Shown one piece after another: positions 20,083-33,398 of a stretch of DNA of 64,000 bases. The number at the start of each line of letters is the position of its first letter. Position 1 is the first letter of the stretch. The notes below the pieces were generated by a model. The model searched no databases and had not been told where the DNA came from. It worked only from the letters and a program-made list of their open reading frames with translations. Source of the stretch: a virus; the IMG/VR virus record IMGVR_UViG_3300020020_000026, positions 18,287 through 82,286 of that record. The stretch is one strand, 5' to 3'. The translations under genes were made by a program, and so were the position numbers.

Positions 20083-21294
20083 TTACAGCCCATGCCTCAC
20101 GCCGTCGATAACCACTGACGCCGCGCCGCTGCCAACGAGGTGGTGAACGTCAAAGATGGCCTGATCGCCCTCATTGTAGTATCCGATACAGGATACGCAG
20201 GCAGAGTTGCCCTGGTTGCCTGAGTGCTGCGCGTTGTTTTGCGAAAAGTAACCAGCGGGGCCGGTGATACGAACACTGTAGGCGCTCTCCGATGTCACAC
20301 CGCCATAACCCGGCATGTATCCGCTATCCATGCACATGGTCCACCAGCCGGTTTCGCCAGCACCGCATGTGAACACGCCGTCCTGGAAGTACGACGTTCG
20401 CATCGTGTTTCTGAGGTTCATGTAGCTTGGCGCGGCGCGGACCCAGGTGCTTTCCGGGACCGAGAAGAAGCCGCTCCAGCAAGCGAAGCCAGCCGCGTAC
20501 TGCGGATAGCGCACGCTCAGCATCTGCATCTTGGAGCCGTCGAAGATCACCCAAAGGATCGCGCCGGGCCTGATATCACCGTTCTGCAAATGCGCGCCGT
20601 CTGGCCAGGTAAGGTAGTAATTGCCAACGGAGTCGATTTGCAGGGTGGTTGTGGTGGTGTTGGCATGCACCGCCATGATCAGGAACGGGTCGCCAGCAAC
20701 GAGTGACGTGATCGTCGGATTGAAGGTGGCATACAAGTTGTTCGGTCCGCCGCCCGCGACCGCATAAGGAATTTTCGTCGTGTAGTTGTTGATGGTCGAG
20801 CTTACGCCGGGAGGGCCATTCCAGTTCTCGATCTGCCAGCCCGCGCCGTCGAAATTCAGGTTGAGGATTTCGCCGGTCAGGAAGTCGCCGCTCTGGCACG
20901 CCGCGCCGTTGGCGCGAATGATCGGCCACGCGCCCAGGTCATTGAGAGCTAGCGTGCTGGCACCAACGCAGTCGTATGCGACCTTGATCCGCACCACCAT
21001 TCCAAAGAACAGGGCTATTGGAGAAGGGTTGAGCGTTGCCACCAGCGCGCTCGCCGTGCCGGTGTCGAGCGCCGCATGGGTGAGCCACGGGTTGCGCTGC
21101 GTCGCCTGCCAAAGTTGCTGGAGGTTGTCGTTTGTCGGCACCATCCCGGCAAACTTGACGCTGTTGACGATCTCGCGCTGGGTAAACTCGATGCTCTCTG
21201 CCGGGATGATCGAGCCCTGGATGCCAGCGGATGGATTGCCGTTGATATAAGGTCCATCCACGCTGTTGATGCCATACGGCGGATTGTACTTAAT
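20083..21294 (-). CDS. Baseplate-attached tail fibre, probable ATT start
   Basis: AGGAGG-N5-ATT gives MKYNPPYG...YINGNP; follows the gp48-like gene. Confidence 0.8.
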   Translation of the reverse strand: MKYNPPYGINSVDGPYINGNPSAGIQGSIIPAESIEFTQREIVNSVKFAGMVPTNDNLQQLWQATQRNPWLTHAALDTGTASALVATLNPSPIALFFGMVVRIKVAYDCVGASTLALNDLGAWPIIRANGAACQSGDFLTGEILNLNFDGAGWQIENWNGPPGVSSTINNYTTKIPYAVAGGGPNNLYATFNPTITSLVAGDPFLIMAVHANTTTTTLQIDSVGNYYLTWPDGAHLQNGDIRPGAILWVIFDGSKMQMLSVRYPQYAAGFACWSGFFSVPESTWVRAAPSYMNLRNTMRTSYFQDGVFTCGAGETGWWTMCMDSGYMPGYGGVTSESAYSVRITGPAGYFSQNNAQHSGNQGNSACVSCIGYYNEGDQAIFDVHHLVGSGAASVVIDGVRHGL

Positions 21295-21312
21295 TGTTGC
21301 CTCCTATTTGAT

Positions 21313-22026
21313 TCATGGCGTGCCCTGCATCGGCCCGCCCAGTGACAGTGCAGTGAAGTCTGGGACGATGTCGGTGTGCGCCGGTTTCCAGCGTTCAAGC
21401 AAGCAAACGATCTCGGTCGGAATGCCAAACTCAAGGTGATGATCGACGCCAACCTCGCCGCCGCCAGGTCCAGCGCGAAACCACCGCAAGCTGATCTGCC
21501 CGATGTTGACGGTCCAGACGAAGCGCATCTCTGGCGGTCCGAGATACCAGCGAAAATTGTCTTCAGGAAACGGACGGGTGTCGCCAACCCTGCTGACGCC
21601 GCTCATATACGGCGCGTACTCTCGAATGACGACATCCGGGTATCCAACCCAGTCCAACAGGTCGATAAAGAACTGCCGCGATTGGCCCCCGATCATCGTC
21701 ATGATCAGGACCAACAGCTTCTGGCGCTCCGCAATCGACGTGGCCGATGGGAAGCAATCGTCGGGAAGCCCCCAGTTGCGTTCCCAGTCGGGGAGCAATT
21801 CCGTCGTCAGACGCGGATCGCTTTCCCGGTCCAGGAGATCGCAAGCCCTGCTGTCGAAAAAGCCCCAGTATTGCGCCAGCCCGTTGCAGGCCCGCTCCAG
21901 CGTCGAGCCGGGGTTCTTCGGCCACGCCTGCCCTTGCGGCAACAATGTCAGGAAAGCCTCGGCGTAGTCGTCCCCTGTTCGGCAAACGTGCCGGTCGCGC
22001 GGGAGAGGCTTGTCTGGGACTGTCAT
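21313..22026 (-). CDS. Mu gp48-like baseplate protein (DUF2313/YmfQ)
   Basis: LLPQGQAWP, ELLPDWERNWGLPD, KPAHT. Confidence 0.88.
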   Translation of the reverse strand: MTVPDKPLPRDRHVCRTGDDYAEAFLTLLPQGQAWPKNPGSTLERACNGLAQYWGFFDSRACDLLDRESDPRLTTELLPDWERNWGLPDDCFPSATSIAERQKLLVLIMTMIGGQSRQFFIDLLDWVGYPDVVIREYAPYMSGVSRVGDTRPFPEDNFRWYLGPPEMRFVWTVNIGQISLRWFRAGPGGGEVGVDHHLEFGIPTEIVCLLERWKPAHTDIVPDFTALSLGGPMQGTP

Positions 22027-23102
22027 AGAAACATGAGGTTACCGAGAACTGCCATGTAGCCCGGCGCTGGCATGATGTCGTCCTCGGCGTTGACGAGATG
22101 GAAGGAGGTCACGTTCGGCGTGTTCATGATCGCTGACGACTTCCAGGCCGCGAAGATCGTCTGGCCAGGCGTCGCCAGCCGAAGCAGCATATCCTCCAGG
22201 CTCTTCTCGATTTCGGCTTGAACCGACAAGCCGCCAGGCAACAGGTTATCGACCGTGACATGGACCGGGTGCGGAATCGGTGACATGACGAAGATATCTT
22301 TCACCGCGACCGGCCGCATGATGTCGAGGTAAGCCGCAACGTCATCGATGTCCTGTTGCAGCGGGAAGCCGCTGTTGTAGGAACGCAGCTCGTCCATCAT
22401 GAAGCGCACGGTGACGGTGCCGATCCCCATCTCCAGTGGATAGCACCAGGCCCGCGTGACGCCAGGCACGGCGAGCGCCCAGTTGATGTAGTCGTGCGCC
22501 GCCCCGCCCATCGGCGGCTGTCGAATGCGGTGCAAGACGCGGGCGCGGAGGTCGTCGTCGTTCTCGACATCGACGCCGCCGGTCATCTCTACGACGGTCA
22601 CCGTATTATCGACGCCGGGGATGGTCTCGTTCAAATCCAGGATGTCGCCCGTGGCGCGATTGCCGAGAGCCCCGGCCGACAGCGCCCGCGCCGTTGTTTC
22701 GGTCGCCGCCAGGCTGACGGTGGTTTCCGCCGTGACCTCGTAATTCATTTCGTCGGTGCCGGTCAGCCGCGCTCCCACCGGAATAACGGTGCCCTCGGTC
22801 CCGGTGAACGCGACGACACCCTCCGCGAAGGTTGCCTGCTTGCGGCCGATGGTGCCGTCAGAATTGACCAGCCAGATCGCGCCGTGCCGATCCAGCCACT
22901 CCGTCTCTGCGGTGTCGGGCAGAAGCTGCAGCGCCAGCCAGTCGATGTATTGCAGATTGAGGTGGGCAAGCGCGCCCTGGGCGTCAGACAGGACGCGAAG
23001 CACTGAGTTTGGAACGCTGGCGTCGGCACCAGGAAGCGACGCCCGGATGTTGTCCCGGACGAGCGATCTGATTTCACGAAGGCTCGGGGTACTCCAAGGC
23101 AT
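22023..23102 (-). CDS. Baseplate J / Mu gp47-like
   Basis: PDTAETEWLDRHG, GGxDVExDDDLRAR, GGAAHDY..WALAVPGV. Confidence 0.92.
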   Translation of the reverse strand: MPWSTPSLREIRSLVRDNIRASLPGADASVPNSVLRVLSDAQGALAHLNLQYIDWLALQLLPDTAETEWLDRHGAIWLVNSDGTIGRKQATFAEGVVAFTGTEGTVIPVGARLTGTDEMNYEVTAETTVSLAATETTARALSAGALGNRATGDILDLNETIPGVDNTVTVVEMTGGVDVENDDDLRARVLHRIRQPPMGGAAHDYINWALAVPGVTRAWCYPLEMGIGTVTVRFMMDELRSYNSGFPLQQDIDDVAAYLDIMRPVAVKDIFVMSPIPHPVHVTVDNLLPGGLSVQAEIEKSLEDMLLRLATPGQTIFAAWKSSAIMNTPNVTSFHLVNAEDDIMPAPGYMAVLGNLMFL

Positions 23103-23103
23103 G

Positions 23104-23610
23104 TCAGGCTCTTTCGATATCGTTCCAGAGGATTTGGAATCGCATTTCTACCGGCCTGTTCGGGCCGCGATAGATCACGACAGCCGCCTCGATACGCTCG
23201 ACGCTGCCGCGCCAGACCTCGACATCGAAGCTGGTCGCAATCCGGTTGTCTACAAAGGGCTGGATTGCCTCCCTGATGTACTGCTCGACACGGACGACGG
23301 TCGCGCCTTCCGGGTCTTCCGGCCCCACGATCTTGGAGCGCCTCAACAGCCACAGCTTGGTGCCTATCGGCCAGCCGTTGAACAAATCCTCCGCCTCCAG
23401 GTCGCCCCACCATCCGGCGCGGTCGGTGCTGTCCGGATCGGGCAGGATGTCGTCAGGAGACGCGAGCCGGTTCGTTCCAAGCGCGACGATGACAGCCGTC
23501 GCCAGCGCCTGGGTGTCGTCCAGCGTTCCGTCATCGAGCAGAAGCCAGTCGATGGGAATCGAGTATCTTGGAAAGGCGTCCGGGCTTTGAAGCAGACGGA
23601 TATCTGGCAT
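23104..23610 (-). CDS. Mu gp46-like baseplate wedge protein
   Basis: LATAVIVALGT, RAGWWGD, GTKLWLLRRSK. Confidence 0.88.
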   Translation of the reverse strand: MPDIRLLQSPDAFPRYSIPIDWLLLDDGTLDDTQALATAVIVALGTNRLASPDDILPDPDSTDRAGWWGDLEAEDLFNGWPIGTKLWLLRRSKIVGPEDPEGATVVRVEQYIREAIQPFVDNRIATSFDVEVWRGSVERIEAAVVIYRGPNRPVEMRFQILWNDIERA

Positions 23611-24632
23611 TATGTCGTCACCCTGATGAAGTCTTTGGCGCGGATGACTCCGCTGACATTGAGGTTGCCGGTTATGTTGAGGTCGCCAGTGATGAAGATG
23701 CCGTCCTCGGTGATCCTGATCTTGTCCTCAAGCGCCCGCTTGCGCGTGAGGAAAGCTTCCTGCTCTGCGCTGAGCGGCGGCGGCGATCTCTTGACGTACT
23801 CGGCAACATCAGCGTCGTCGCCCGGCGGCGGCATGGCCGTGCCAGCAAGCCACGTTCCATCGGTCGGCTTGTAAGCCTCCTTGGTGATGCGGAGGTTGCC
23901 GATGATATGCACGTCGCCGTCGAAGTAGTGCGCCCCGGCCTTGCGCTTGATTGCGGTGCCCTCCATCGCCAGCGTCTTGCCCGCCTTGGCTGAGATGTCC
24001 GCGTCGTGCGCCATGTCCATCTTCTTCTCGCCGAGATCGAGAAACCGCTTGCTCTCCTTCTCGGCCTTTTCATAGCGCTGCTTCTGGCCGGTCTTCTTCT
24101 GGTTTCCGCCGCTGGACGATGACGACGAACTGCCAGTGCCACCGCTGTCGCCCTCGGCATACTGGGTGGGTCCAGCCCCTTGCTGCTGTTGCTGTTGCTG
24201 CTCGACCTTGTGCAGCGCGATCCTGATCTTCTTGTTGTCCAGCCCGGTCAGGAAAGCGCCGTCCTTGTTGAAGTGGAATTGCTGTTGCTGGTGGTCGAAG
24301 AACGCCACGTCTCCAGGCTTCAGCTCCTTCAACCGAAAGCGCCGGTCGTCCATCACGGTCGCGACCGGAAACGATCTGTTGCCGCCCAGGAACGACAGGT
24401 AGGCCTCGGCGCATTGTTCTATCACGCCGCCTTTGCCCTTGGTCGCTGGCATGACGACGGAGGTGAAGCCGTAATTCTGCGGGCTTTCGATCTTCGAGCG
24501 GTTCTCGCCGCCCATGAACATTCCCTTCATCTCTTGCATCAAGGGATTGTCGCTGACCGAATCGACCAGAGCGCGAGCCCCGCCGCTGGTGTAAGCGGTG
24601 AACGCCTGTTGCAGTGGGTTTTGACGATGCAT
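23610..24632 (-). CDS. Mu gp45-like baseplate spike/assembly protein
   Basis: QNYGFTS, GGNRS, DDRRFR..LKPGDV; polyQ/S linker. Confidence 0.85.
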   Translation of the reverse strand: MHRQNPLQQAFTAYTSGGARALVDSVSDNPLMQEMKGMFMGGENRSKIESPQNYGFTSVVMPATKGKGGVIEQCAEAYLSFLGGNRSFPVATVMDDRRFRLKELKPGDVAFFDHQQQQFHFNKDGAFLTGLDNKKIRIALHKVEQQQQQQQGAGPTQYAEGDSGGTGSSSSSSSGGNQKKTGQKQRYEKAEKESKRFLDLGEKKMDMAHDADISAKAGKTLAMEGTAIKRKAGAHYFDGDVHIIGNLRITKEAYKPTDGTWLAGTAMPPPGDDADVAEYVKRSPPPLSAEQEAFLTRKRALEDKIRITEDGIFITGDLNITGNLNVSGVIRAKDFIRVTT

Positions 24633-24644
24633 TAAGCCCCCTCT

Positions 24645-25751
24645 TTATGTGCTGACTGTCGGGTCGGGCGGTGGCGATCCTGGCCCTTGCTGCGGGTTTC
24701 CAAGCTGGTAGAGCTTGTCGCCCAGCATCCACGGCAGGACGCACTCAAGCACTGTAATCGTGCCGCCCCTGGTGTCCTGGGTGAAGGTCGCGGTCTGTAT
24801 CTTCATGCCCATGTTCAATGGGCACATTGGCGAATAGATCATGACGTTATCGCCGGTCTGCCAAAGCGCGCCACCATCGCGCAGCCAGCCTTGCACCGTG
24901 ACGTTGCAGCGGATTTGCGTGCCGTCAGCCTGCAGCGCCTCGTAGTTGGCGCGCATCTGCGCCTCGGCGGCGTTCTTTGCCGGTTGCTCCAGGACGATCT
25001 CCTTGAAGCGATACCATCCCTTGAGGGCACCCTTTGTCCTGGCCATGATCGCGTTAACCGCAGCGCCAAACCTGTTGTCGCTAACGGCATATTGCCCGTG
25101 CAGCTTGTAGAGGCTGTACATCAGTTCGTTGGAGAAGATGCACGTCATCTTCAGGATGTTCTGGCCTTCGGTCAGTTGCTGCACGACAGGCATCGAATGT
25201 TCGCCAATCAGCAGCAAGTTGCCGAGATGGTCCGATCCCAGCGTCGCGTTACGCATGCGCGCGACTTTGTCGAGGAAGTCGAACACCAGCTCGCCAGGCT
25301 GCGATTGCAGCCGCTCAAATTTGGTCAGGTCCACCTTGCCGATGACCTTGAGCATTCCGCCTGCATCGGTCACGGCCTTCATGGCCGACTGGATAACGGT
25401 CATGTTGTCGAAATTATTCTTGTTGTCCTCGCTGGGAATGCTGGACGTAGACGCCGCCCATTGCTTACCGACACCTGACAACTGCACCCCGTGTTCGGTG
25501 CCAGCGTAGCCAACTTGCCGCTGGGTGATGATTCCGGTCACCGCGAGCTGGCCGCCAAGTCTGATTTCGCACGGGTCGCCAGGTTTGAATTTCAATTCGC
25601 GATATAGAAAATTCGAATGGGTGCCTTCAGCCGCAGTGAACCGGAATGTTGGCCACCCCTCCTGCCACCGATGCTGGACGTAAACCGATTCCCAGTCCTG
25701 AAACGATACGCCGCTAACAGTAAGCTGCGCGACCTCATGCGGGTTCGGCAT
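24645..25751 (-). CDS. Mu gpP/gp44-like baseplate hub
   Basis: QPGELVFDFL, LTEGQNI, TVQGW...LW. Confidence 0.85.
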   Translation of the reverse strand: MPNPHEVAQLTVSGVSFQDWESVYVQHRWQEGWPTFRFTAAEGTHSNFLYRELKFKPGDPCEIRLGGQLAVTGIITQRQVGYAGTEHGVQLSGVGKQWAASTSSIPSEDNKNNFDNMTVIQSAMKAVTDAGGMLKVIGKVDLTKFERLQSQPGELVFDFLDKVARMRNATLGSDHLGNLLLIGEHSMPVVQQLTEGQNILKMTCIFSNELMYSLYKLHGQYAVSDNRFGAAVNAIMARTKGALKGWYRFKEIVLEQPAKNAAEAQMRANYEALQADGTQIRCNVTVQGWLRDGGALWQTGDNVMIYSPMCPLNMGMKIQTATFTQDTRGGTITVLECVLPWMLGDKLYQLGNPQQGPGSPPPDPTVST

Positions 25752-25752
25752 T

Positions 25753-26424
25753 TCAGAACGCCAGGGCTCGTCCCTCGCGTGGCGCGAAGGCGGGATGCAC
25801 GACTTTATTCTCTGCTCTTAACTGGTCGGCCCGCCCTGCGGTGTCGTACAGCCGGTGCGACAGAACCAGGGTCGGACGCGGCTTGGCGAATCGATAGGAC
25901 AGCATTTGCGGAAGCGGATGAGCCGTCTGGTACAGGTGGAATGTCACGGCAGCGTGCAGCGTGACCAGCGCTCGATACGCCACCAGCACCATCTCGTCGG
26001 CGGCAGTCTCTTCGGCCGGGTTGAATGCTGCGTTGACCTCGTCCCGCACCTTATCGACATCCTGTCGGCTGACGAACGTCATATCGACAATGTTCATCGA
26101 CATATGCTGCAAAGCGAAACAGACGCAGCCGTTCTTGAGCAGTGTCGCGACCAGGGAGTACGGATTTTCCAGAAGAATGCGCTCCCGGATATGATTGAAC
26201 TCGCTCAGCGTCGCCCCGGTCGCCCGCGCCAGCTCGAAGCATTCGGACAGCTTTTCACCGATAGTATTGTTGGCGATGTAGCTTTCCGCCCCCGCCTTGA
26301 TGTCCCCGCAAGCACGCCGCAGAGCTGAGCCAGACATTCCCTTCTGGTCGTTCGATGTCGCGAGCAGCAAATCGGCAACAAGAGTTACAATAGCTGCGCC
26401 CTCGCTGATGTCCTGATGGATCAT
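25753..26424 (-). CDS. Mu gpN-like C-terminal half (DNA circulation/tail protein)
   Basis: PTLVLSHRLY...RADQL..EN...HPAF. Confidence 0.75.
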   Translation of the reverse strand: MIHQDISEGAAIVTLVADLLLATSNDQKGMSGSALRRACGDIKAGAESYIANNTIGEKLSECFELARATGATLSEFNHIRERILLENPYSLVATLLKNGCVCFALQHMSMNIVDMTFVSRQDVDKVRDEVNAAFNPAEETAADEMVLVAYRALVTLHAAVTFHLYQTAHPLPQMLSYRFAKPRPTLVLSHRLYDTAGRADQLRAENKVVHPAFAPREGRALAF

Positions 26425-27068
26425 GCTCCGACTTGCCCCTGGCTGGCTTCGTGGGCCTTCTTCAGCTCAGACGCGATCCAGCCTTTGTTCGCCTCGTTGA
26501 GCTGACTGACCGCATAATAGACCCCAGCCTTGCTGTTGCGTTCGCCGGTCGCGGGGGCTTTGCCGTATTCGGTAAAGCTCATATCGAATGAGCAATAGCC
26601 ACCCTGCCGGTTTTCCTCCGTGACACGATAGCGCGTGCAGACCGCCTCGATCAGCCCAAGCAGCGGCAACTGAAGAATGGCCGGGCCTTCTGTTTCCAGC
26701 GCCAGGATCAGCGCATCGCGCGCCGTGATGTAGTTCTTCTTCTGCAAAACACTTTCGCCCTCTCTCGGATAGACGACGATGTAGCCGCGCACGGTGAACT
26801 CGCGCTGGCGGCGGCCCATATCCTCGGCATACGGCAAGTCGCGCTTCGGGAATTCATGCGACACGATGCGACGTGCAGATTCGCGCACTGCTGTATCGAC
26901 ATGAAACCGCGCGTTGCGAAACTTGGCTGGCATCCACCGGCCGCGCCAGGCCTTGCCGGACTCCAGCTCCAGAATCTTGGTGGCTCTGGCGGGCCTCAAC
27001 CCTTTGCCGGATGCGACGGGTTGAGAAAGCTGTTGCGGCTGCATTGCTGGAGGAAGGACTGGAGGCAT
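26421..27068 (-). CDS. DNA circulation N-terminal domain protein (Mu gpN-like)
   Basis: FRNARFHV, HEFPKRD.PYAEDMGR. Confidence 0.88.
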   Translation of the reverse strand: MPPVLPPAMQPQQLSQPVASGKGLRPARATKILELESGKAWRGRWMPAKFRNARFHVDTAVRESARRIVSHEFPKRDLPYAEDMGRRQREFTVRGYIVVYPREGESVLQKKNYITARDALILALETEGPAILQLPLLGLIEAVCTRYRVTEENRQGGYCSFDMSFTEYGKAPATGERNSKAGVYYAVSQLNEANKGWIASELKKAHEASQGQVGA

Positions 27069-27078
27069 GAGGGGTTAC

Positions 27079-29496
27079 CTAGATGTTCTGATACAAATAA
27101 TTGTCGGCGGTGTCGTAGGCGTTCGGCCCGCTCTGGGTGTTCTGACCGGCCTCTGATCTTTGCAGCGGCGTGTTCTGGAACAGCTTCGCGCGAGCCGATC
27201 CCTTTGGCTTGGCAGGCGCTCCAACATCCACCTTAACAGTACCGTCAGCCCTAACTGACGTTGTGTCCGAGAGAGCCTTGCGGTCGAGCGCCTCACGGTC
27301 CAGGTCGCCCGGCGTGAATGGCGCGGCTTCCGGCGGTCCCGTGGGAGCATCGCCCGGCGTAAAGACCGGAGCCTCCGGTATCCCGGCGACCTTGGATTCC
27401 TGCGCGGCCTTGCTTTGCGCGTAGCGCTTCGCGCCCTGCGGCGTGAGCTGGGTGTGAAGATGCTTGCCGGTCGCGTAGCCGACTGGATTGCGCACCTCAT
27501 CTCTGAATTTGTAGTCCCGGCCCTCGACCATGCCGTGCCTCGCGAATATTTCGCGCTGCTTGGCCATCGCGGCATCGACCTGAGCCGTCGTCCTGGCCCG
27601 CGTGTCGAATGCCAGGGCCTTGGCATGGGCTGAATTCGGGTTTCTCTTTGTCAGCCTGTGATCTGGGCCGCGATAGCCGGATGTCGTCGTCATCCCGGCT
27701 TCCTGTACCTCGCCCATGATCGACTTCAGACCGGCAATCCGGTCCTTCATGCTGCCGGTGAATGGAGCCGAATCAGTTGGAGCTGAAGCTGCGCCACTAG
27801 GAGCTGGAGCCGCGCTCGGAGCCGTGCCGCCACTGCTGGGAGCTGGAGCCGCGCTCGGCGTGCCGCCGCCGCCGCTGGGAGCCGCAGTGTCGCCGCCGGT
27901 CGCCGGGGCCGCCGGTCCGCTCGGAGCTGCCGTTGTGCTGCCGCTGGAGGGTGGCTCGGACGACGGCGAAGAAGGAGCCGCAGTGCCGCCGCTGGTCGGA
28001 GCGCCGGTCGGAGCGCCGCCGGTCGGACTGCCTGCGCCGCTGCCGGTGCCTCCGCCACCAGGTGGCGAATAGCTGGCCTTCTGGACGCCGCCGCCCTGGC
28101 TTCCAGTCGAGCGATCCTCCATCCGCTCGAAGTAGTTGTTCAGCCTGTCGAGCTGGCCGGTCAGCTTCTCGGTCTGCTCGGTGTTTTGTCCGGTCTCGTC
28201 AATCAGCTCGTCGGTCGTAAAGCTGGCGGGCTGAAGCAGAGGATTCGTCTCGCCGGGCGGCGTGTAGCTTTGCGGGGTCGCGCCCGGCATGTCTGGCTGG
28301 GTCGCATCACTGCTCTTCAAGGCTCCTAGCTTGTTGAGCCCTTGAATAACCGTGATGACCTGGCCAAGCAGCGGGATACCCTTCAGCAATTCAACGAGGT
28401 TGACCCCAAGCCCAGGGAGCTGTTCATCGATGTAGGTGATGCCCCTGCCGATAGCGCCGAAGAGATCATCCGCAAGCCTCAACGCCCCAAGCAACACCGG
28501 CAATCCAGCGGAGAGGGCCGAGAACGTGATGCCCTTCAACTTGAGACTTATTTCGCCCCAGATTTCCGAAACACGTTTACCAGACGCCGCGACCTCCGCC
28601 ATCTCCCTGGCCTTCTCAGGGCTAACCGGCTTCAGCTCCAGCTCCATGCCTTCGCGCGTCTGGCCGAAATCTCCCCAGAATTGATTTGCGAGAGCCGCCG
28701 CTACGCTCTTGCCCCAACCGGCTTCCAGGGCTTGCTTCTCTAGCGCTTTGCCGTACTGCGCGATCATCTGCCGCGCCTTGGCGGGCTCGACGGCGGCTAG
28801 CTGGTTTACCCAGTTGGCATCGACGCCCTGGCTGATCAGCTTCTGACGGAGCTGCGAATTATTCTTGTACAAATCGAACTGCGCGGCCTGGATGCCCTGG
28901 AAACTTCGAGTGATCAACTCGGCCGAATGCCCAAACGCCTTCGCCTGATCCTGTGCATACTTCAGCTCGGCAAAGCTCATGCCCAGCGTGCGCGCCGTCC
29001 TGCCAAGCTGGTCCATCTCCTTGGCGAACTTGAACACCGATATGCCGTAGGCGACGGCGACCAGGCCGATAGCCGCAACGCCAATGGCAAGCCTGCCAAG
29101 GCCGACAACCGCAGCCTGCGAGACGCCGGGGATATTCTTCATCGACTCGCCAAGGCGGTTAACGCCTTCGGCTGCGTCCCACAGCCCCACCGCCAGCCTG
29201 GGCAAACCAGAGAGGCCTTGCTGGGCCGCGTTCCCCATCTGGGCCAGCGAACGGCCGGTGTCAGCAGCGTTGCGCGACAGGGCGCTCAGCTCTGTGCTGA
29301 TCGTTCGCAGCCTGGGTCCAGCGGTCAGTGCTGCGTTACCCAGAGCGGTCGCGCTGGCGGTAGCCTGCGTAAAGCTGGTCGTCATCTGACCGGCGGTCTG
29401 GGTCAGGTTCACCAGCTCGGTGCGAATTTTCGCGAGCCCAGTGGACGCATTGTCCACCAGGTTTACTGTCAATCTTAGTTCTTCAAACTCAGCCAT
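27079..29496 (-). CDS. Tape-measure-like protein 2 with M15/LAS-type peptidase cargo
   Basis: Paralog of upstream gene; TSGYR...SAH....AFD...HLH. Confidence 0.75.
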   Translation of the reverse strand: MAEFEELRLTVNLVDNASTGLAKIRTELVNLTQTAGQMTTSFTQATASATALGNAALTAGPRLRTISTELSALSRNAADTGRSLAQMGNAAQQGLSGLPRLAVGLWDAAEGVNRLGESMKNIPGVSQAAVVGLGRLAIGVAAIGLVAVAYGISVFKFAKEMDQLGRTARTLGMSFAELKYAQDQAKAFGHSAELITRSFQGIQAAQFDLYKNNSQLRQKLISQGVDANWVNQLAAVEPAKARQMIAQYGKALEKQALEAGWGKSVAAALANQFWGDFGQTREGMELELKPVSPEKAREMAEVAASGKRVSEIWGEISLKLKGITFSALSAGLPVLLGALRLADDLFGAIGRGITYIDEQLPGLGVNLVELLKGIPLLGQVITVIQGLNKLGALKSSDATQPDMPGATPQSYTPPGETNPLLQPASFTTDELIDETGQNTEQTEKLTGQLDRLNNYFERMEDRSTGSQGGGVQKASYSPPGGGGTGSGAGSPTGGAPTGAPTSGGTAAPSSPSSEPPSSGSTTAAPSGPAAPATGGDTAAPSGGGGTPSAAPAPSSGGTAPSAAPAPSGAASAPTDSAPFTGSMKDRIAGLKSIMGEVQEAGMTTTSGYRGPDHRLTKRNPNSAHAKALAFDTRARTTAQVDAAMAKQREIFARHGMVEGRDYKFRDEVRNPVGYATGKHLHTQLTPQGAKRYAQSKAAQESKVAGIPEAPVFTPGDAPTGPPEAAPFTPGDLDREALDRKALSDTTSVRADGTVKVDVGAPAKPKGSARAKLFQNTPLQRSEAGQNTQSGPNAYDTADNYLYQNI

Positions 29497-32342
29497 CAGA
29501 TTGACATCGCTTCCGGTTCAGCCACCTTCGTTGTTCTCGAAGTCTCGGTGTCCTTGAACGCACCACTGCCCTCGACCTCGACCTTAGTGCCAGTCGGCCC
29601 GGTAACCTCGGCCTTCAGCTTTCCTTTGACATCCGGCTTCTGCGAATCGGTGAGCGCGCTGCGGTCGAGTGTTGCGCGATCTGGCTCTTTCTTATTTGCA
29701 GCGACAGCGGCAGCGGCGGCGGCTGCGTCGGCGGCGGCGATCTCCTGCTCTCGCTTCTGTCTCCATGCAGCGGAGCCAGCGTAATCCAGATCGTTAAAAC
29801 GCTCTTTGTTGATATTGACGCCAACCCCACCTCGCTCGTAATTCGGGTCTCCCCTGCTGCCCTGGTCGGTGTGGCTTTTAATGACGTTGCTGCCGCCAAC
29901 CGCTTGATCGACCAGCTTGTTCATAGCTGCAGCGTAGGCCGGGTCTTTCATCAGCTCTAGATGCTTAGCCAGGTGCCCGTGTTTAACCGGCCCATAGAAG
30001 CTCTCGGACGGGCTTCTTCCCAGTATCATCTCCCTAAGCGTTTTCGGCGGCAGACCTCTCTTCGCACGAGACTCGTTAACCATCTCAGTCCGGTTCATCA
30101 GGCTTTCAACAACGGCTGGACCAGCTCCGGGATTTTCGGCGCTGAGAATCGCACCCACCAATTTTCTGGTTTCCGGGTCTTCCAATTGCTTCTTAAATCC
30201 AGCGCGCTTCGCAGCCAGAAACGCCGCCCCACCACCGCCGCTGGGAGTAGTCGCAACGCCCTCGACCCTAGCGGGACCGGCCTTGTCACCCGTCGCGACG
30301 TTGCCTTCCGCCGCTCGCTTCGCGCGCACCTCCGCGACCGTCGCGTCGCTCGCGTAGCGCAAGTCCATTCCTTTGACGCTGCGCGGCTTGACGCCGTACT
30401 GGTCGGCAAACCATGCGGTGTTCGTCTTCGGATCGTATGACCCCGGCACGATGGTCATGACGTGACCGCCGGTCTGGCCCTTGGGAGCGCGCCCGCTGTA
30501 GCTTGCGATCATGCTGCCGAAGGGACGGTTCGGATTGTTGATGTCCGCCGCCTTCTGCGCTTCACCCCAATCATTCCAGTTGGTGGCAACCTTGCTGTTC
30601 GCAGTCGGCGGCTTGAAGCCTGCCGACATCACGTACTTGGTGGCGACGATCCCGCAGGCCGGGCCACTCATCTTGTAGCCCTTGGTGTCGAACAGCTTCT
30701 TCAGCCCGGCGGTGTCACCCGCGCGACCCAGCCGCTCGACCTCCTTCATCGTCTCGGGATCGATGCCCTTGCCAGCCTGATCGACCATCCCCGCAGGACC
30801 ACCAGGACCAGCGGGACCAGAGGAACCAACCCCATAGCCGCCCGTACTTGCGCCGCCGTAACCTCCTCCGCCGCCGTAGCCGCCGCCTGCGCTGGCACCA
30901 ATGCCGCCTCCACCAGCGCCACCACCCGTGCCCTCCATGCGCTCAAAGAAAAGATTGAGCCTTTCGAGCTGACCGGTGTTCCTCTCGGTCTCGGTCGAAT
31001 TGCGGTCGGTCTCCTCGCCCAGGGTGAAGCTGGCGCGCTGGAATAGCGGACGCCCTCCACCCTCATCGCCGCCGTCGTAGCTCTGTTTGCGCCAGAACGG
31101 TTGCTGGTTCGGGCGCGTGCGGTTCGGACGAGGCGCGGGTGCGGGCTCCGCGTCGCTCTTTTGACTACCGTACCGAGAGAGCCCGTCAAGCAAAGTGATT
31201 GCTGGGCCAAGGCCCGGCACCAGCTTCAGGATGTCAACGAAGTTGACCCCGATCTTTTTCAGGTGCGCATTGACCCAGCCGATGGCCTTTCCGATGCCGG
31301 TAATGATCGGATCGATAAGTCTCAGCAACCCCAGCAAAGCCGGAAGACCGGCAGAGAGAGCCGAGAATGTCATCTTCTCCAGCTTGAGACTGATCTCGCC
31401 CCAGATAATGGAAACCTCTTTGCTCTGGTCCTCGACCCTCTTGTACTCAGCCGCCTTCGCCGGATCGTCAGCCAGCTTGATCGCCAGCTCCATATCCTCG
31501 GCGTTCTGCCCGTACTCCTGATAAAACTGGTTCATCAGGGCGGCGGCATTGCTTGCGCTCGCGCCCCTTGCCAGTGCCTGCTTCTCAAGCGCCTTGCCAT
31601 AGCGCGCGATCATCTCGCGAGCCCTGGTCGGATCGGCCAGCATGAGCTGATTGATCCAGCCCGCATCAACGCCCTGCGCCAGCAACTTCGCCCGGAGCTG
31701 AGAATTGTTTTTGTAGAGGTCGAACTGCGCAGCCTGGATGCCTGCGTAGCTGCGGATAACGCCCTCGGCCGTGTAGCCGAATGAGGTCGCCTGATCTTGC
31801 GCGCTCTTCAATTGGGCAAAGCTGATGCCCAGGGAGCGCGCCGTTCGGCCAAGCTCGACCATCTCTCTTGAGAACCGGAAGACCGACACGCCGTAAGCCG
31901 CAATCGCAACGCCAACAGCGGCGACGCCAAGAACAACACCGCCGATGGCGAGTACCGCAATCCGCGACGCTGGCACCAGCTCTCCCAGCGCAGAGCCCAT
32001 GACTTGGACGCCCTGCGCCGCGTCATACAGGCCGACAGCCATCCGTGGCAGTCCGCCGATTCCGCGATTGACCGAAAGGGCCATCTGAGCCAGCGCCTGG
32101 CCGGTCTGGGCGGCGTGACGCTGCAGATCACGCATCGCCTGATTGGCGGTGCGAACGTGAGGTGCCGCGTTTAGCGCAGCGGTGCCAAAGTTGGTGACAC
32201 CGCCAGACGCACTTCGCAGCCCTGTCGCCGCATTCGCCGCCGCTACACCCAGCCCGCCGATCTCACCGCGCAGTCTTGCAAGCCCCGCAGACGCGCTGTC
32301 TGCGAGGGTGACGGTAAGACGTAGTTCTTCAAACTCCGCCAT
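29496..32342 (-). CDS. Tape-measure-like protein 1 with CHAP-like and second hydrolase-like cargo
   Basis: Follows tail chaperone; helical N-half; ACG...GHV; AEN...VVESLMNR. Confidence 0.78.
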   Translation of the reverse strand: MAEFEELRLTVTLADSASAGLARLRGEIGGLGVAAANAATGLRSASGGVTNFGTAALNAAPHVRTANQAMRDLQRHAAQTGQALAQMALSVNRGIGGLPRMAVGLYDAAQGVQVMGSALGELVPASRIAVLAIGGVVLGVAAVGVAIAAYGVSVFRFSREMVELGRTARSLGISFAQLKSAQDQATSFGYTAEGVIRSYAGIQAAQFDLYKNNSQLRAKLLAQGVDAGWINQLMLADPTRAREMIARYGKALEKQALARGASASNAAALMNQFYQEYGQNAEDMELAIKLADDPAKAAEYKRVEDQSKEVSIIWGEISLKLEKMTFSALSAGLPALLGLLRLIDPIITGIGKAIGWVNAHLKKIGVNFVDILKLVPGLGPAITLLDGLSRYGSQKSDAEPAPAPRPNRTRPNQQPFWRKQSYDGGDEGGGRPLFQRASFTLGEETDRNSTETERNTGQLERLNLFFERMEGTGGGAGGGGIGASAGGGYGGGGGYGGASTGGYGVGSSGPAGPGGPAGMVDQAGKGIDPETMKEVERLGRAGDTAGLKKLFDTKGYKMSGPACGIVATKYVMSAGFKPPTANSKVATNWNDWGEAQKAADINNPNRPFGSMIASYSGRAPKGQTGGHVMTIVPGSYDPKTNTAWFADQYGVKPRSVKGMDLRYASDATVAEVRAKRAAEGNVATGDKAGPARVEGVATTPSGGGGAAFLAAKRAGFKKQLEDPETRKLVGAILSAENPGAGPAVVESLMNRTEMVNESRAKRGLPPKTLREMILGRSPSESFYGPVKHGHLAKHLELMKDPAYAAAMNKLVDQAVGGSNVIKSHTDQGSRGDPNYERGGVGVNINKERFNDLDYAGSAAWRQKREQEIAAADAAAAAAAVAANKKEPDRATLDRSALTDSQKPDVKGKLKAEVTGPTGTKVEVEGSGAFKDTETSRTTKVAEPEAMSI

Positions 32343-32526
32343 CGTCCATCGTCGCGCGCTCGCGTTTCTTCTGATGCGCTAGTTCGATGGTGCGCTCCAG
32401 GTGGACGCGAACCTCCGATGCAGGCATCTCAAGAAAAACGACGGGCGAGATTTTGTAGAAGTCAGCGAGCCGATAGCAGTCGAGGACCGTAGTCCCTACC
32501 ACGCTGTCGGGTCCGGGATAAAAAAA
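32329..32526 (-). CDS. Tail chaperone -1 frameshift extension (gpGT/E'-like)
   Basis: T TTT TTT at 32526-32520; -1 frame reads YPGPDSVVGTTVLDCYRLADFYKISP... to 32329. Confidence 0.75.
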   Translation of the reverse strand, partial: FFYPGPDSVVGTTVLDCYRLADFYKISPVVFLEMPASEVRVHLERTIELAHQKKRERATMDDGGV

Positions 32527-32921
32527 CCGCGTAACCGATAGGCGCAGCTATTCCAGTCCCGTGGGTCCATCGCCTCGATGAACGGAGGTAGAATGCCGGA
32601 TAGCGCCGACATCATCGTCGTCATCTTGCGCTCCAGGATGACAACGTCGCCGTCCTGGTTGACGTGACACGGATTGCCATAGCGGTTGATGTCGCCGCCG
32701 GTCGGCTCGCGGAACGACAGCTCATGCACCGTCTCCGCACCCTGGCGGACGCCGCGATGCAACAGCTTCACCTTGACCGGCCAAAGGTCTTTCGGCTGCT
32801 CAAGAACTTCCGGCTCTTCCGGCATCGGAGGCAGTTGATGCACGGGCTCGGGCGCGGGCGTCTCGGGGAGAGGCTCGGCGCGTTGCTTGACGAACCCCTC
32901 CCGGTTGCTTGGCTTGTTCAT
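32496..32921 (-). CDS. Tail assembly chaperone
   Basis: ELSFREPTGGD, MDPRDW...GFF; lies between tube and TMP. Confidence 0.85.
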   Translation of the reverse strand: MNKPSNREGFVKQRAEPLPETPAPEPVHQLPPMPEEPEVLEQPKDLWPVKVKLLHRGVRQGAETVHELSFREPTGGDINRYGNPCHVNQDGDVVILERKMTTMMSALSGILPPFIEAMDPRDWNSCAYRLRGFFIPDPTAW

Positions 32922-32945
32922 ACCCTCTCCTCTTGTCGAACGAAC

Positions 32946-33347
32946 TTATCGAGCGAATTGCTGGACCGGCGACACCGGGTTGTCGATGGCCATCTCCTCG
33001 CACCACAGGCCCTCCCAGCGCACGCGCACCTGGCCGTCGCGGGCGTTGGCTTCAAGCGCCGCCTTGCACGTTGCGCCAATCAGGCTGTACTGCCAACCGT
33101 TGGCGAGCTGCGCGACGACGTTGACATCCGTGGCCCCGTCGAGGTCTTCGAGGGCGAGCCCCCGCGTTGTCGAGATGTCACCCTCGATGAAAGGCACCCT
33201 CGGCAACTCTTGATAACCATGAACGCCATCCTGGCCAGCGAGCATCGTCCGCTCGACAGGCGAAGGGCTGACAGTGAAGTTGCCGCGCAGCGCCATCATC
33301 TGCGAGCCAACGTACAGGTATGCAATACCCGCGAATCTCTGTGCGAT
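32946..33347 (-). CDS. Tail tube protein (Mu gpM-like), probable ATC start
   Basis: AGGAGG-N5-ATC gives MAQRFAGIAYLYV...; GQDGVHGY.E.P. Confidence 0.88.
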   Translation of the reverse strand: MAQRFAGIAYLYVGSQMMALRGNFTVSPSPVERTMLAGQDGVHGYQELPRVPFIEGDISTTRGLALEDLDGATDVNVVAQLANGWQYSLIGATCKAALEANARDGQVRVRWEGLWCEEMAIDNPVSPVQQFAR

Positions 33348-33398
33348 TGTAGCCTCCTATTGTTTCGGAAGTGTCAGCGTAAGAAAGCGACGCGGGGA

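What the first reader, a model, noticed from the sequence alone, without database searches (positions are those of the whole stretch)
21292..33360. Two tail genes start at non-AUG codons (AUU and AUC) within a near-identical Shine-Dalgarno context
Seen on the minus strand: AATAGGAGGCAACA-ATT-AAG-TAC-AAT-CCG (ATT at 21294, tail fibre, giving MKYNPPYG) and AATAGGAGGCTACA-ATC-GCA-CAG-AGA (ATC at 33347, tail tube, giving MAQRFAGIAYL). Both are in frame, have a perfect AGGAGG 5 nt upstream and no nearby ATG, and the two contexts match at 15 of 17 nt. Established: AUU starts (infC) are discriminated against by IF3. Inference: deliberate translational control of tail stoichiometry or timing, for example sensing IF3 or a phage-modified initiation machinery. 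This would be surprising for an abundant tube protein.
Basis: partly seen in the sequence, partly recalled or inferred. Interest (0 to 1): 0.7.

Follow-up and report, generated by a model that had tools for sequence, protein, structure and literature searches.

The report
Non-AUG starts on phage tail genes
Two tail genes of a soil phage really begin at ATT and ATC instead of ATG, behind a very strong ribosome-binding site, and the fibre gene's odd start looks like a recurring leftover of a selfish nuclease gene that once sat just upstream.

Summary
ATT (21294-21292) and ATC (33347-33345), minus strand, sit exactly where relatives have the initiator codon. Each follows AGGAGG plus 5 nt, and the 14-nt leader AATAGGAGGCNACA occurs only at these two places in the 82-kb genome. 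Independent contigs of two runs of the source sample agree.

The two cases differ.
- **Tube ATC:** private to this genome. No relative read has ATH. The nearest one has the same SD with TTG.
- **Fibre ATT:** recurrent. In a sample blind to the start codon, 8 of 89 family members start at ATT, all with GGAGG(C/T)+5 nt. 6 of the 8 have an HNH homing-endonuclease gene or remnant directly upstream, against 1 of 80 canonical-start alleles. Otherwise identical phages differ only by this cassette versus weak-SD/ATG.

In the window only an 8-codon mini-ORF remains (21316-21290). It overlaps the gp48 stop (ATGA) and the fibre start (ATTAA).

The best reading is real AUU/AUC initiation sustained by a maximal SD, with the fibre junction as a homing-endonuclease scar. 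IF3 sensing is untested. Earlier reports of this scan describe the same arrangement on other DNA.

The parts
33345..33347 (-). ATC, proposed initiation codon of the tail tube gene
   Evidence: It aligns with ATG/GTG/TTG in 77 of 79 relatives, and with M1 in 26 of the 26 other rows of alignment A1.
33353..33358 (-). AGGAGG Shine-Dalgarno of the tube gene, 5-nt spacer
   Evidence: Duplex energy -10.2 kcal/mol.
32946..33347 (-). Tail tube gene, 133 codons plus stop (Mu gpM type)
   Evidence: Pfam PF10618 Tail_tube, E 7e-28, residues 3-117 on profile positions 2-116 of 117. phrog_185 tail tube. PDB 9khy_G 'Tail tube protein', E 3.6e-4, in the same N-terminal register.
33297..33299 (-). First canonical in-frame ATG of the tube frame (listed by the ORF listing), 16 codons downstream; no SD
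   Evidence: SD energy -1.5.
33399..34967 (-). Tail sheath gene upstream of the tube gene; its TAA is in frame with the tube, 51 nt upstream of the ATC
   Evidence: Pfam PF04984 and PF17482; sequence.
21292..21294 (-). ATT, proposed initiation codon of the tail fibre gene
   Evidence: It aligns with the first residue of 145 of the 150 best family representatives, and with ATG or GTG in 4 of 4 close loci.
21300..21305 (-). AGGAGG Shine-Dalgarno of the fibre gene, 5-nt spacer
   Evidence: Duplex energy -10.2.
20083..21294 (-). Tail fibre / tail protein gene, 403 codons plus stop, with the conserved N-terminus xKYNxPYG...NGNP...GS..PA...QRE
   Evidence: PHROG hits include tail protein and tail fibre families. 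Its homologue in Rhizobium phage RR1-A is annotated 'tail protein' and lies after 'baseplate wedge subunit'.
21259..21261 (-). GTG used by the public gene call (392-aa product P0001); no SD
21290..21316 (-). 8-codon mini-ORF, ATG AAT CAA ATA GGA GGC AAC AAT TAA (MNQIGGNN*). Its ATG overlaps the TGA of the gp48-like gene (ATGA), it reads through the SD, and its TAA overlaps the ATT (ATTAA). Read as a collapsed homing-endonuclease ORF.
   Evidence: L315 has the same mini-ORF (MRQTGGNN*). In L376, L289, L321, L339 and L386 full or partial HNH ORFs occupy the same slot, with the same start and end geometry.
21313..22026 (-). Mu Gp48-like baseplate gene ending ...GGPMQGTP*, upstream of the fibre junction
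   Evidence: Pfam PF10076, E 1e-18. The same gene end (...MAGTP*) lies upstream of the endonuclease slot in relatives.

Best explanation
Initiator tRNA reads AUU (fibre) and AUC (tube) with a third-base mismatch, and a maximal Shine-Dalgarno (AGGAGG) at a 5-nt spacing holds the 30S subunit long enough to make up for the weak codon. This step is inferred from sequence and from what is established about near-cognate starts.

The two cases have different histories.

(1) Fibre. The 18-nt junction between the gp48-like baseplate gene and the fibre gene is one allele of a recurrent junction cassette. In relatives the same slot holds a free-standing HNH homing-endonuclease gene (GIY-YIG-like in some). 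That gene starts on or next to the gp48 stop, carries the fibre's SD in its last codons, and ends at or on the fibre's ATT. Internal deletions leave remnants of 33-37 codons. In the window and in L315 only 8 codons remain. Because the SD and the start of an essential gene lie inside the cassette's 3' end, that end survives when the nuclease gene decays. Fibre translation may also be fed by termination-reinitiation through the mini-ORF (gp48 stop ATGA, then the mini-ORF, then ATTAA). This last step is inference only.

(2) Tube. The ATC is a change private to this genome, in a sub-lineage that already paired the same strong SD (TAGGAGGCTACA) with a weak TTG start. It is tolerated, or was compensated beforehand, by that SD. 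Whether its 19-nt identity with the ATC junctions of L198 and L231 means a nuclease scar here too is open.
For: **True N-termini.**
- Tube: the position of the ATC is ATG 67, GTG 6, TTG 4 in 79 readable relatives, and 2 more have an ATG three codons upstream. A2, G7 and A9 are invariant in 27 sequences. The Pfam domain starts at residue 3.
- Fibre: 145 of the 150 best representatives align from their own residue 1-3. Of 151 stored proteins, 150 begin with M, V or L, and 145 have the pattern x-[KQRLDE]-Y.
- Between the window and its relatives the first codons differ synonymously. This is read by eye.

**No alternative start.** The downstream GTG and ATG have SD energy -1.5, against -10.2 for the ATY sites.

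**Not an error.** See under the observation check.

**Compensation.**
- Tube relatives: non-ATG starts (n=9 distinct) have median SD -10.2; ATG starts (n=62) have -7.1. Mann-Whitney p=0.0011.
- Fibre family: SD at or below -10 in 12 of 12 ATY alleles, 0 of 50 ATG alleles and 6 of 11 GTG/TTG alleles.

**Recurrence.** A scan with the back-translated KYNQPYG motif leaves the start codon free. It gave 100 stretches, of which I count 89 as fibre genes: ATG 66, GTG 12, TTG 3, ATT 8. All 8 ATT alleles have GGAGG(C/T)+5 nt. The contig names shown for them and for three leader-scan loci carry 9 different metagenome ids.

**Cassette behaviour.**
- ATY is scattered on the tree of the N-terminal 139 residues: 10 changes for 12 rows, at least 5 of them forced by starred branches. 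Identical N-termini carry ATG or ATT: L290 = L339 = L386, and L308 = L321.
- L308 and L321 are identical from about 22 nt before the gp48 stop leftward, and from the base after the start codon rightward. They differ by an insert of roughly 90 nt that carries an HNH remnant, AGGAGGCAACA and ATT.

**Endonucleases.**
- The ORFs upstream of L376 (198 aa) and L289 (218 aa) are HNH (PF01844 and PF14279, above cutoff). L243 matches the GIY-YIG family PF22945 above cutoff; L226 and L201 score just below.
- Their stops overlap the ATT or lie in the leader. They follow the same gp48-like gene end, with ATGA or GTGA overlaps in L289, L321, L315 and the window.
- tblastn with these proteins hits within 1 kb upstream of 6 of 8 ATT alleles, 1 of 66 ATG, 0 of 11 GTG and 0 of 3 TTG.
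- The gap from the gp48 stop to the start has median 116 nt for ATT alleles and 12 nt for ATG alleles.

**Established background.** T4 free-standing endonuclease genes embed promoters of downstream essential genes, which favours their retention, and the mobE start overlaps the nrdA stop (PMC2988022, passages).
Against: - No expression or protein data exist for any of these loci.
- In E. coli reporters AUU and AUC give only 1-2% of AUG (bioRxiv 10.1101/063800, passages). That would be very low for a tube protein.
- The tube ATC is found in no relative read, and one metagenome scan for its leader with a free start codon found only the TTG contig. It could therefore be a recent, mildly harmful or even disabling change in a prophage copy.
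- The window genome itself holds no endonuclease homologue (tblastn, E up to 0.01, none). The scar reading for the window rests on an 8-codon ORF and on L315.
- The endonuclease queries came from ATT loci, and 2 of the 6 ATT hits are self-hits, so the test could not see other nuclease families upstream of ATG alleles. Three canonical-start alleles also have long gaps: L347 (which holds an HNH remnant), L372 and L359.
- Five of the 12 ATY alleles were picked by their leader, so their strong SD is by construction. The unbiased ones are 6 distinct alleles plus the window.
- The statistics are not corrected for relatedness.
- In L243, L285 and L272 the ATY is not needed as a stop for the upstream ORF, so 'ATT makes the TAA' is not a general reason.
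Confidence: 0.65

Rival explanations
1. Dedicated translational control: the AUU and AUC starts are kept by selection to make tail-fibre and tube synthesis depend on the state of the host initiation machinery (IF3 level, ppGpp, temperature), or to fix tail stoichiometry. It is compatible with a nuclease-borne origin.
For: - Non-canonical starts are selectively inhibited by raised IF3 (PMC2268962, passages). Non-AUG mRNAs are more sensitive to ppGpp, nutrient limitation and low temperature (PMC5499595, abstract).
- The fibre ATT persists in diverged alleles with an invariant 5-nt spacing.
- The identical 14-nt leader is used only for these two genes in the genome.
Against: - The tube ATC is conserved in no relative.
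- Otherwise identical fibre genes use weak-SD/ATG or strong-SD/ATT interchangeably. This suggests similar output rather than a special switch.
- There is no phage tRNA and no known RNA element, and no special RNA fold at either site (z = 0.12 and -0.31).
Confidence: 0.15
2. Loss of function: the start codons were lost by mutation in a resident, non-selected prophage copy. The proteins are then not made, or are made as N-terminally truncated products from GTG 21261 and ATG 33299.
For: - The record is a metagenomic contig. The closest tube homologue in a genome is a Bradyrhizobium prophage.
- The tube ATC is unique.
- The public gene call starts the fibre at GTG 21261 (P0001).
- Relatives with ATG tube starts occur in the same sample (loose ends of X2 and X3).
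Against: - Both hits fall on the third base of a start codon, and both fall on genes with an SD in the strongest class of this genome (about 5 of some 90 ORFs reach -10).
- The fibre ATT with its leader is shared by at least 6 further distinct alleles whose fibre ORFs are intact (349-447 codons) and of the same length as their ATG twins.
- The downstream starts lack an SD and would remove invariant residues.
- The neighbouring tail ORFs are long and open.
Confidence: 0.12
3. Sequencing or assembly error at 21292 and 33345.
For: Only contigs, not raw reads, could be inspected. X1 and X2 are the probable source sample.
Against: - Two separately assembled runs give 0 differences over the ATT site, and X1 gives 0 differences over the ATC site, at depth 5-9.
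- Two independent errors landing on the third bases of two start codons in 82 kb is very improbable.
- The same ATT junction exists in other metagenomes.
Confidence: 0.03

Closest known systems
AUU starts of E. coli infC and pcnB; near-cognate AUU/AUC/AUA initiation in bacteria and phages
   Same: A near-cognate AUY codon is read by the initiator tRNA behind an SD. Such starts are listed as alternative initiation codons of tailed phages that gene callers miss (PMC8785237, passages). The N-terminal residue is still Met (10.1101/063800, passages).
   Different: - The infC AUU is conserved across bacteria and is the sensor of an autoregulatory loop. Here the tube ATC is private.
- The fibre ATT travels with a mobile junction.
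- No regulator is known.
Free-standing homing endonuclease genes of T4-type phages (seg and mob genes) that embed expression signals of the downstream gene
   Same: - A promoter-less nuclease ORF sits between two conserved genes.
- Its start overlaps the upstream stop, as mobE overlaps nrdA.
- Signals for the downstream essential gene lie inside the nuclease ORF, which favours its retention.
- Sequence next to the insertion is co-converted (PMC2988022, passages).

In relatives of the window the fibre's SD lies in the last codons of HNH or GIY-YIG-like ORFs.
   Different: - In T4 the embedded signals described are promoters. Here they are the ribosome-binding site and a non-AUG start codon.
- The window holds no nuclease gene, only an 8-codon remnant.
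- Nuclease activity and target site are untested.
Start-codon / Shine-Dalgarno compensation in prokaryotes (Belinky, Rogozin, Koonin 2017)
   Same: Sub-optimal start codons go with stronger SD sequences (PMC5622118, abstract). The same graded pattern shows in both gene families here.
   Different: That study concerns GUG and UUG. Here the series extends to AUU and AUC, with complete separation from AUG alleles in the fibre family.
Translational coupling by overlapping stop and start codons (ATGA, TAATG)
   Same: The gp48 stop overlaps the mini-ORF start (ATGA), and the mini-ORF stop overlaps the fibre start (ATTAA).
   Different: - The restart codon is AUU.
- An 8-codon relay ORF lies between the two genes.
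- Dependence on upstream translation is not shown.

Membership tests
Non-canonical (AUU/AUC) bacterial initiation sites | Near-cognate codon at the position homologous to the initiator codon of relatives | tested here: met
   Tube: 77 of 79 relatives have ATG, GTG or TTG there. Fibre: 145 of 150 representatives align from residue 1-3, and 4 of 4 close loci have ATG or GTG.
Non-canonical (AUU/AUC) bacterial initiation sites | Shine-Dalgarno at working distance, and no canonical start with an SD nearby | tested here: met
   AGGAGG plus 5 nt at both sites, energy -10.2. The next canonical starts score -1.5.
Non-canonical (AUU/AUC) bacterial initiation sites | Protein shown to begin there (N-terminal peptide, start-site ribosome profiling) | not testable with these tools
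   No RNA run is listed and no proteome is available.
Regulatory non-AUG start of the infC type | The non-AUG codon is conserved across the gene's relatives | tested here: not met
   Tube: 0 ATH in 79, 20, 6, 32 and 13 relatives read; these sets overlap. Fibre: ATT in 8 of 89, scattered on the tree, so recurrent but not family-wide.
Regulatory non-AUG start of the infC type | Expression responds to IF3 level | not testable with these tools
   Needs reporter assays.
Free-standing homing endonuclease cassette (T4 seg/mob type) | HNH or GIY-YIG nuclease ORF between two conserved genes | tested here: not met
   In the window, tblastn with five such proteins found nothing in the 82-kb genome, and only the 8-codon mini-ORF is present. 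In relatives the feature is met: L376 and L289 (HNH) and L243 (GIY-YIG) score above the Pfam cutoffs.
Free-standing homing endonuclease cassette (T4 seg/mob type) | Presence/absence polymorphism between otherwise near-identical genomes, with altered sequence next to the insertion | tested here: met
   L308/L321, L291/L315 and L290/L339. This concerns relatives, not the window itself.
Free-standing homing endonuclease cassette (T4 seg/mob type) | The nuclease cleaves the cassette-free allele and spares its own | not testable with these tools
   Needs a cleavage assay.
Mu gpM-type tail tube (PF10618) | Full-length match to the family profile, next to sheath and tail-chaperone genes | tested here: met
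   PF10618, E 7e-28, profile positions 2-116 of 117. Sheath (PF04984, PF17482) lies upstream and Phage_TAC_7 downstream.

The most novel reading that the evidence does not exclude
Homing-endonuclease genes that settle just upstream of conserved tail genes rewrite the host gene's initiation region on purpose. They replace the native weak-SD/ATG by their own maximal SD plus an AUU or AUC start. This change (a) destroys the nuclease's own target, which spans the conserved start of the gene. It also (b) makes translation of the essential tail gene depend on the cassette's 3' end, and perhaps on termination-reinitiation from the nuclease ORF. The cassette end then cannot be lost even after the nuclease decays. 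The window's fibre junction, and possibly its tube junction, would be such fossil 'addiction' scars. On this reading non-AUG starts of phage structural genes would largely mark past nuclease invasions.
Probability: 0.25. Interest if true: 0.8.

Novelty: new variant of a known kind. Interest (0 to 1): 0.55.

Why it matters
- **Annotation.** Gene callers truncate these proteins. The public call of the fibre begins 11 codons late. About 9% of this fibre family would be mis-annotated in the same way (8 of 89).
- **Biology.** The fibre family offers natural allele pairs on identical backgrounds, weak SD with ATG against maximal SD with ATT. These are ready-made material for measuring how far an SD can rescue a near-cognate start outside E. 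coli.
- **Evolution.** Together with three earlier reports of this scan on other phages, the result suggests that selfish nuclease genes are a regular source of non-AUG starts on phage tail genes. My literature searches listed no paper that describes this link. Subscription journals and supplements were not covered.

Tried and rejected
- **Phage-encoded decoding aid.** ARAGORN found 0 tRNA or tmRNA genes in the 82-kb genome. Rfam gave 0 matches in the window at gathering score.
- **RNA structure at the two initiation regions.** 91-nt folds are no better than shuffles, z = 0.12 and -0.31.
- **Other ATY starts in the genome.** A crude ORF table flagged 5 near-cognates with SD at or below -6 upstream of the first canonical start. 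Two are the reported sites (-10.2). The other three are CTG or ATT in weak or antisense-shadow ORFs. The table is not a proper gene call, and weaker cases could be missed.
- **First broad SD scan.** Too noisy to use.
- **Truncated tube gene calls as hidden ATY starts.** Of the 120 best tube homologues, 117 have the standard N-terminus and 3 (P0243, P0254, P0262) start later. P0262 and P0243 lie at contig ends (L114, L115), and the identical gene inside a 96-kb contig (L113) starts at ATG. P0254 was not traced.
- **Metagenome scan for the tube leader with a free start codon.** It found 1 stretch, the known TTG contig. The window's own record may be hidden by the tool.
- **No RNA holder was listed** for the stretch.
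- **Runs X3 and X4.** They hold related contigs, but the rows shown do not tell what they have at 21292 or 33345 (545 differences were not shown).
- **Tube-side endonuclease.** Nothing was found upstream of the tube start. For the ATC loci L198 and L231 the similarity of the upstream sequence to the nuclease proteins is weak (E 0.003 in a five-protein database).
- **PMC2323383** (Campylobacter Mu-like prophages, passages) deals only with TTG and GTG.
- **Slips of my own.**
  - read one codon too far upstream, so I took the start residues from the printed translations.
  - One search used a wrong offset for L085; this was fixed.
  - In one search the first 92 residues of the L201 ORF matched the gp48 region of most loci. 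They were removed and the test was repeated.
- **Rows dropped.**
  - L078, too short.
  - 5 of 37 loci (L114, L115, L142, L147, L148).
  - 6 of 19 loci had no regex match and were not read.
  - 11 of 100 matches were taken as chance (AAA x6, AGA, CGC, GAT, TAA, and ATC L348, which has a 69-codon ORF and SD -4.2).
  - one GTG locus with an ORF under 80 codons.

Full report
**What is there.**

The window is bases 18287-82286 of an 82,286-bp IMG/VR virus record, with 61% G+C. The finding lies in a Mu-type contractile-tail module on the minus strand. The genes, unless noted:

| Gene | Coordinates | Evidence |
|---|---|---|
| Sheath | 33399-34967 | PF04984, PF17482 |
| Tube | 32946-33347 | PF10618 |
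| Tail chaperone | 32496-32921 | PF10109 |
| Two long tape-measure-like ORFs | 27079-32342 | |
| Mu Gp48-like baseplate gene | 21313-22026 | PF10076 |
| Tail fibre / tail protein gene | 20083-21294 | see below |

The fibre gene has no Pfam match. Its homologue in Rhizobium phage RR1-A is annotated 'tail protein' and follows 'baseplate wedge subunit'.

Each gene has an in-frame TAG, then GAG GCN ACA, then ATT or ATC. AGGAGG lies 5 nt upstream. The 17-mers match at 15 of 17 positions.

**Are these the real N-termini?**

For the tube, 80 related viral loci were fetched out of 150 found. In the 79 that could be read, the codon aligned with the ATC is ATG 67, GTG 6 and TTG 4, and two have an ATG three codons upstream. 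Further sets, which partly overlap, gave no ATH either:

| Set | Loci read | Start codons |
|---|---|---|
| DNA pattern scan | 20 of 20 | all canonical |
| Genome loci (two named Bradyrhizobium, one Methylobacterium) | 6 of 6 | all ATG |
| Relatives of P0262 | 32 of 37 | all canonical |
| Loci from 13 of 301 genomes of the genus of the closest hit | 13 of 19 | ATG 11, GTG 2 |

Other evidence points the same way:
- In a 27-row alignment M1 is present in all rows but the window, and A2, G7 and A9 are invariant.
- The Pfam and PHROG domains begin at residue 3.
- A solved 'Tail tube protein' (PDB 9khy chain G, 118 aa) aligns in the same register: profile 5-93 on chain 6-93, E 3.6e-4.

For the fibre, a full HMMER scan of 1.84 billion representatives with the first 90 residues found 1372 relatives. 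145 of the 150 best align from their own residue 1-3. 145 of 151 stored proteins begin x-[KQRLDE]-Y. Gene callers allow only canonical starts, so these proteins cannot themselves show an ATT. The window's own public call starts at GTG 21261 (P0001, 392 aa).

The downstream canonical starts have no SD, -1.5 kcal/mol against -10.2.

**Error?**

Contigs assembled separately from two runs of one soil sample, probably the source, carry both codons unchanged (details under the observation check). Loose ends in that sample show co-occurring relatives with ATG tube starts.

**The tube case.**

The ATC is private to this genome. The window's closest tube gene by DNA (L006, 86% identity, tree unresolved) has the same leader, TAGGAGGCTACA, followed by TTG. 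L005 and L036 have similar leaders with TTG and GTG.

Among 71 distinct leader-plus-start combinations, non-ATG starts (n=9) have a median SD energy of -10.2 and ATG starts (n=62) have -7.1. One-sided Mann-Whitney p=0.0011, not corrected for relatedness. The ATC therefore arose in a sub-lineage that already paired a maximal SD with a weak start.

A metagenome scan for this leader with a free start codon found only the TTG contig.

**The fibre case turned out differently.**

It gave ATG 90, ATT 13, ATA 11 and ATC 4.
- Among the ATH hits with ORFs of 80 codons or more, four ATT cases are simply followed by ATG.
- Five cases (L201, L226, L272, L285 with ATT; L243 with ATC) are members of the same fibre family, with the ATY aligned to the family's first residue.
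- None of the 90 ATG hits is of that family (read by eye).
- Two more ATC hits (L198, L231) are phrog_644 proteins. One has a Peptidase_S74 tail-fibre chaperone domain.

To remove the selection on the leader, I scanned for the back-translated motif KYNQPYG with the start codon left free. Of 100 stretches I count 89 as fibre genes: ATG 66, GTG 12, TTG 3 and ATT 8. All 8 ATT alleles have GGAGG(C/T), a 5-nt spacer and SD energy of -10.2 to -10.9.

Over distinct alleles, SD at or below -10 is found in 12 of 12 ATY, 0 of 50 ATG and 6 of 11 GTG/TTG. Five of the 12 ATY alleles were leader-selected.

**A mobile junction.**

On a tree of the N-terminal 139 residues the ATY state is scattered. It needs 10 changes for 12 rows, at least 5 of them forced by well-supported branches. 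Identical N-termini occur with ATG and with ATT.

Pairwise alignments show what differs:
- L308 (ATG) and L321 (ATT) are 100% identical on both sides. The exception is a segment that begins about 22 nt before the gp48 stop and ends at the third base of the start codon. In L321 this segment is roughly 90 nt longer.
- L291 and L315 differ by a 10-nt against an 18-nt intergenic stretch.

The frame that reads through the SD holds nuclease ORFs or their remains:

| Loci | ORF through the SD | Assignment |
|---|---|---|
| L376, L289 | 198 and 218 aa | HNH (PF01844, PF14279, above cutoff) |
| L243 | 209 aa | GIY-YIG-like (PF22945, above cutoff) |
| L226, L201 | 217 and 304 aa | GIY-YIG-like (PF22945, just below cutoff) |
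| L339, L386, L321 | 33-37 codons | remnants that match the ends of the L376 protein |
| L315, window | 8 codons | M(R/N)Q(T/I)GGNN |

All follow the same gp48-like gene end (...MAGTP*). In L289, L321, L315 and the window the ORF's start overlaps that stop, as ATGA or GTGA. Where the second fibre codon is AAR, the ORF's TAA overlaps the ATT (ATTAA).

tblastn with the five nuclease proteins hits within 1 kb upstream of 6 of 8 ATT alleles (two are self-hits), 1 of 66 ATG (L347), 0 of 11 GTG and 0 of 3 TTG. The gap from the gp48 stop to the fibre start has a median of 116 nt for ATT alleles and 12 nt for ATG alleles. Three canonical-start alleles also have gaps above 300 nt.

The window genome has no nuclease homologue.

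**How it most likely works.**

Shown:
- the positions of the codons and the strength and spacing of the SD;
- the recurrence of the ATT junction and its link with nuclease genes;
- the allele pairs on identical backgrounds.

Inferred:
- Initiator tRNA reads AUU or AUC, and the six-base SD pairing offsets IF3's discrimination.
- Output is probably below that of ATG behind the same SD. In the fibre it is perhaps close to the weak-SD/ATG allele that it replaces.
- The junction is the surviving 3' end of a free-standing homing-endonuclease cassette. It is kept because it carries the only ribosome-binding site of an essential gene. This parallels the promoters embedded in T4 seg and mob genes (PMC2988022, passages).
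- Termination-reinitiation through the mini-ORF, and ATG-to-ATT as protection of the nuclease's own target, are hypotheses only.

The tube ATC may be plain drift buffered by a strong SD, or a second scar. Its 19-nt identity with L198 and L231 is the only hint for the latter.

**Known and new.**
- ATT and ATC are listed as alternative starts of tailed phages that gene callers miss (PMC8785237, passages).
- In E. coli only infC and pcnB are confirmed AUU starts, and AUU or AUC give 1-2% of AUG in reporters (10.1101/063800, passages).
- Context matters greatly, and rare starts may be neutral or regulatory (PMC5499595, abstract and section 23).
- A stronger SD compensates for weak starts (PMC5622118, abstract).
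- Five searches listed no paper that links homing endonucleases with AUU or AUC starts of tail genes. Supplements were closed and subscription journals are not held.

After I had reached this reading, a look-up showed that earlier agents of this scan described the same arrangement on other phages: e1-3538426, e1-3542741 and e1-137052. These are unchecked notes and not independent evidence.

**Host.**

The host is probably a member of the Rhizobiales. The tube is 94% identical to a prophage protein of a Bradyrhizobium genome. The fibre N-terminus matches only Rhizobium phages among 50,697 phage records, and both of those have ATG starts. One fibre relative is named from a Ktedonobacterales MAG, which conflicts with this.

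**Verdict.**

The finding is a real and mildly surprising pair of non-AUG starts. For the fibre gene it opens onto a recurrent, nuclease-borne initiation cassette. That cassette is the more interesting result.

Noticed in passing
window 21290-21316 (-): An 8-codon mini-ORF (MNQIGGNN*) bridges the gp48-like stop (ATGA) and the fibre start (ATTAA) and reads through the SD. L315 has the same ORF, with two changed codons, while the flanking coding DNA is much more diverged.
   Followed up: yes
L384 (viral contig), fibre junction: A GTG-start fibre allele has an analogous 6-codon mini-ORF, running from an ATGA on the gp48 stop to a TGA that overlaps the GTG start (...CC ATG AAC AGG AGG TCC GCG TGA). 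This looks like the same relay geometry with a canonical start.
   Followed up: no
L347, L372, L359 (viral contigs): Three canonical-start fibre alleles also have gaps of 312-343 nt after the gp48-like gene. L347 holds the N-terminal part of an HNH ORF but has an ATG fibre start behind a weaker SD. So not every insertion goes with ATT.
   Followed up: partly
L198 7481-7888 (+) and L231 3399-4016 (-): Two phrog_644 virion proteins (one with a Peptidase_S74 domain) start at ATC behind AATAGGAGGCTACA and continue with GC. This is the same 19 nt as at the window's tube start. Upstream of L198 lies a 59-codon start-less ORF that resembles the C-terminal repeats of the GIY-YIG-like proteins only weakly.
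   Followed up: partly
window 27079-29496 and 29496-32342 (-): Two long tape-measure-like ORFs (805 and 948 aa) abut with a one-base overlap. Whether they are paralogues or one split gene was not examined.
   Followed up: no
window 32329-32921 (-): The tail chaperone gene (PF10109) is followed by a short overlapping ORF (32329-32502). This is the usual place of a programmed frameshift in tail chaperone pairs. Not examined.
   Followed up: no
window 33335-33341, runs X2 and X3: Contigs of the same soil sample and of a sediment sample break away from the window just inside the tube gene. They continue into a different leader with an ATG start, so close relatives with a canonical tube start co-occur with this phage.
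   Followed up: no
window 48839 (-): The only other near match to the leader that precedes a long ORF is CAAAGGAGGCGACC followed by TTG (127 codons). It is another weak start behind AGGAGGC.
   Followed up: no
protein P0003: The closest named fibre relative is filed under a Ktedonobacterales MAG, while the tube's genome hits are Bradyrhizobium and other Alphaproteobacteria. Either the MAG is mis-binned or the module is shared widely.
   Followed up: no
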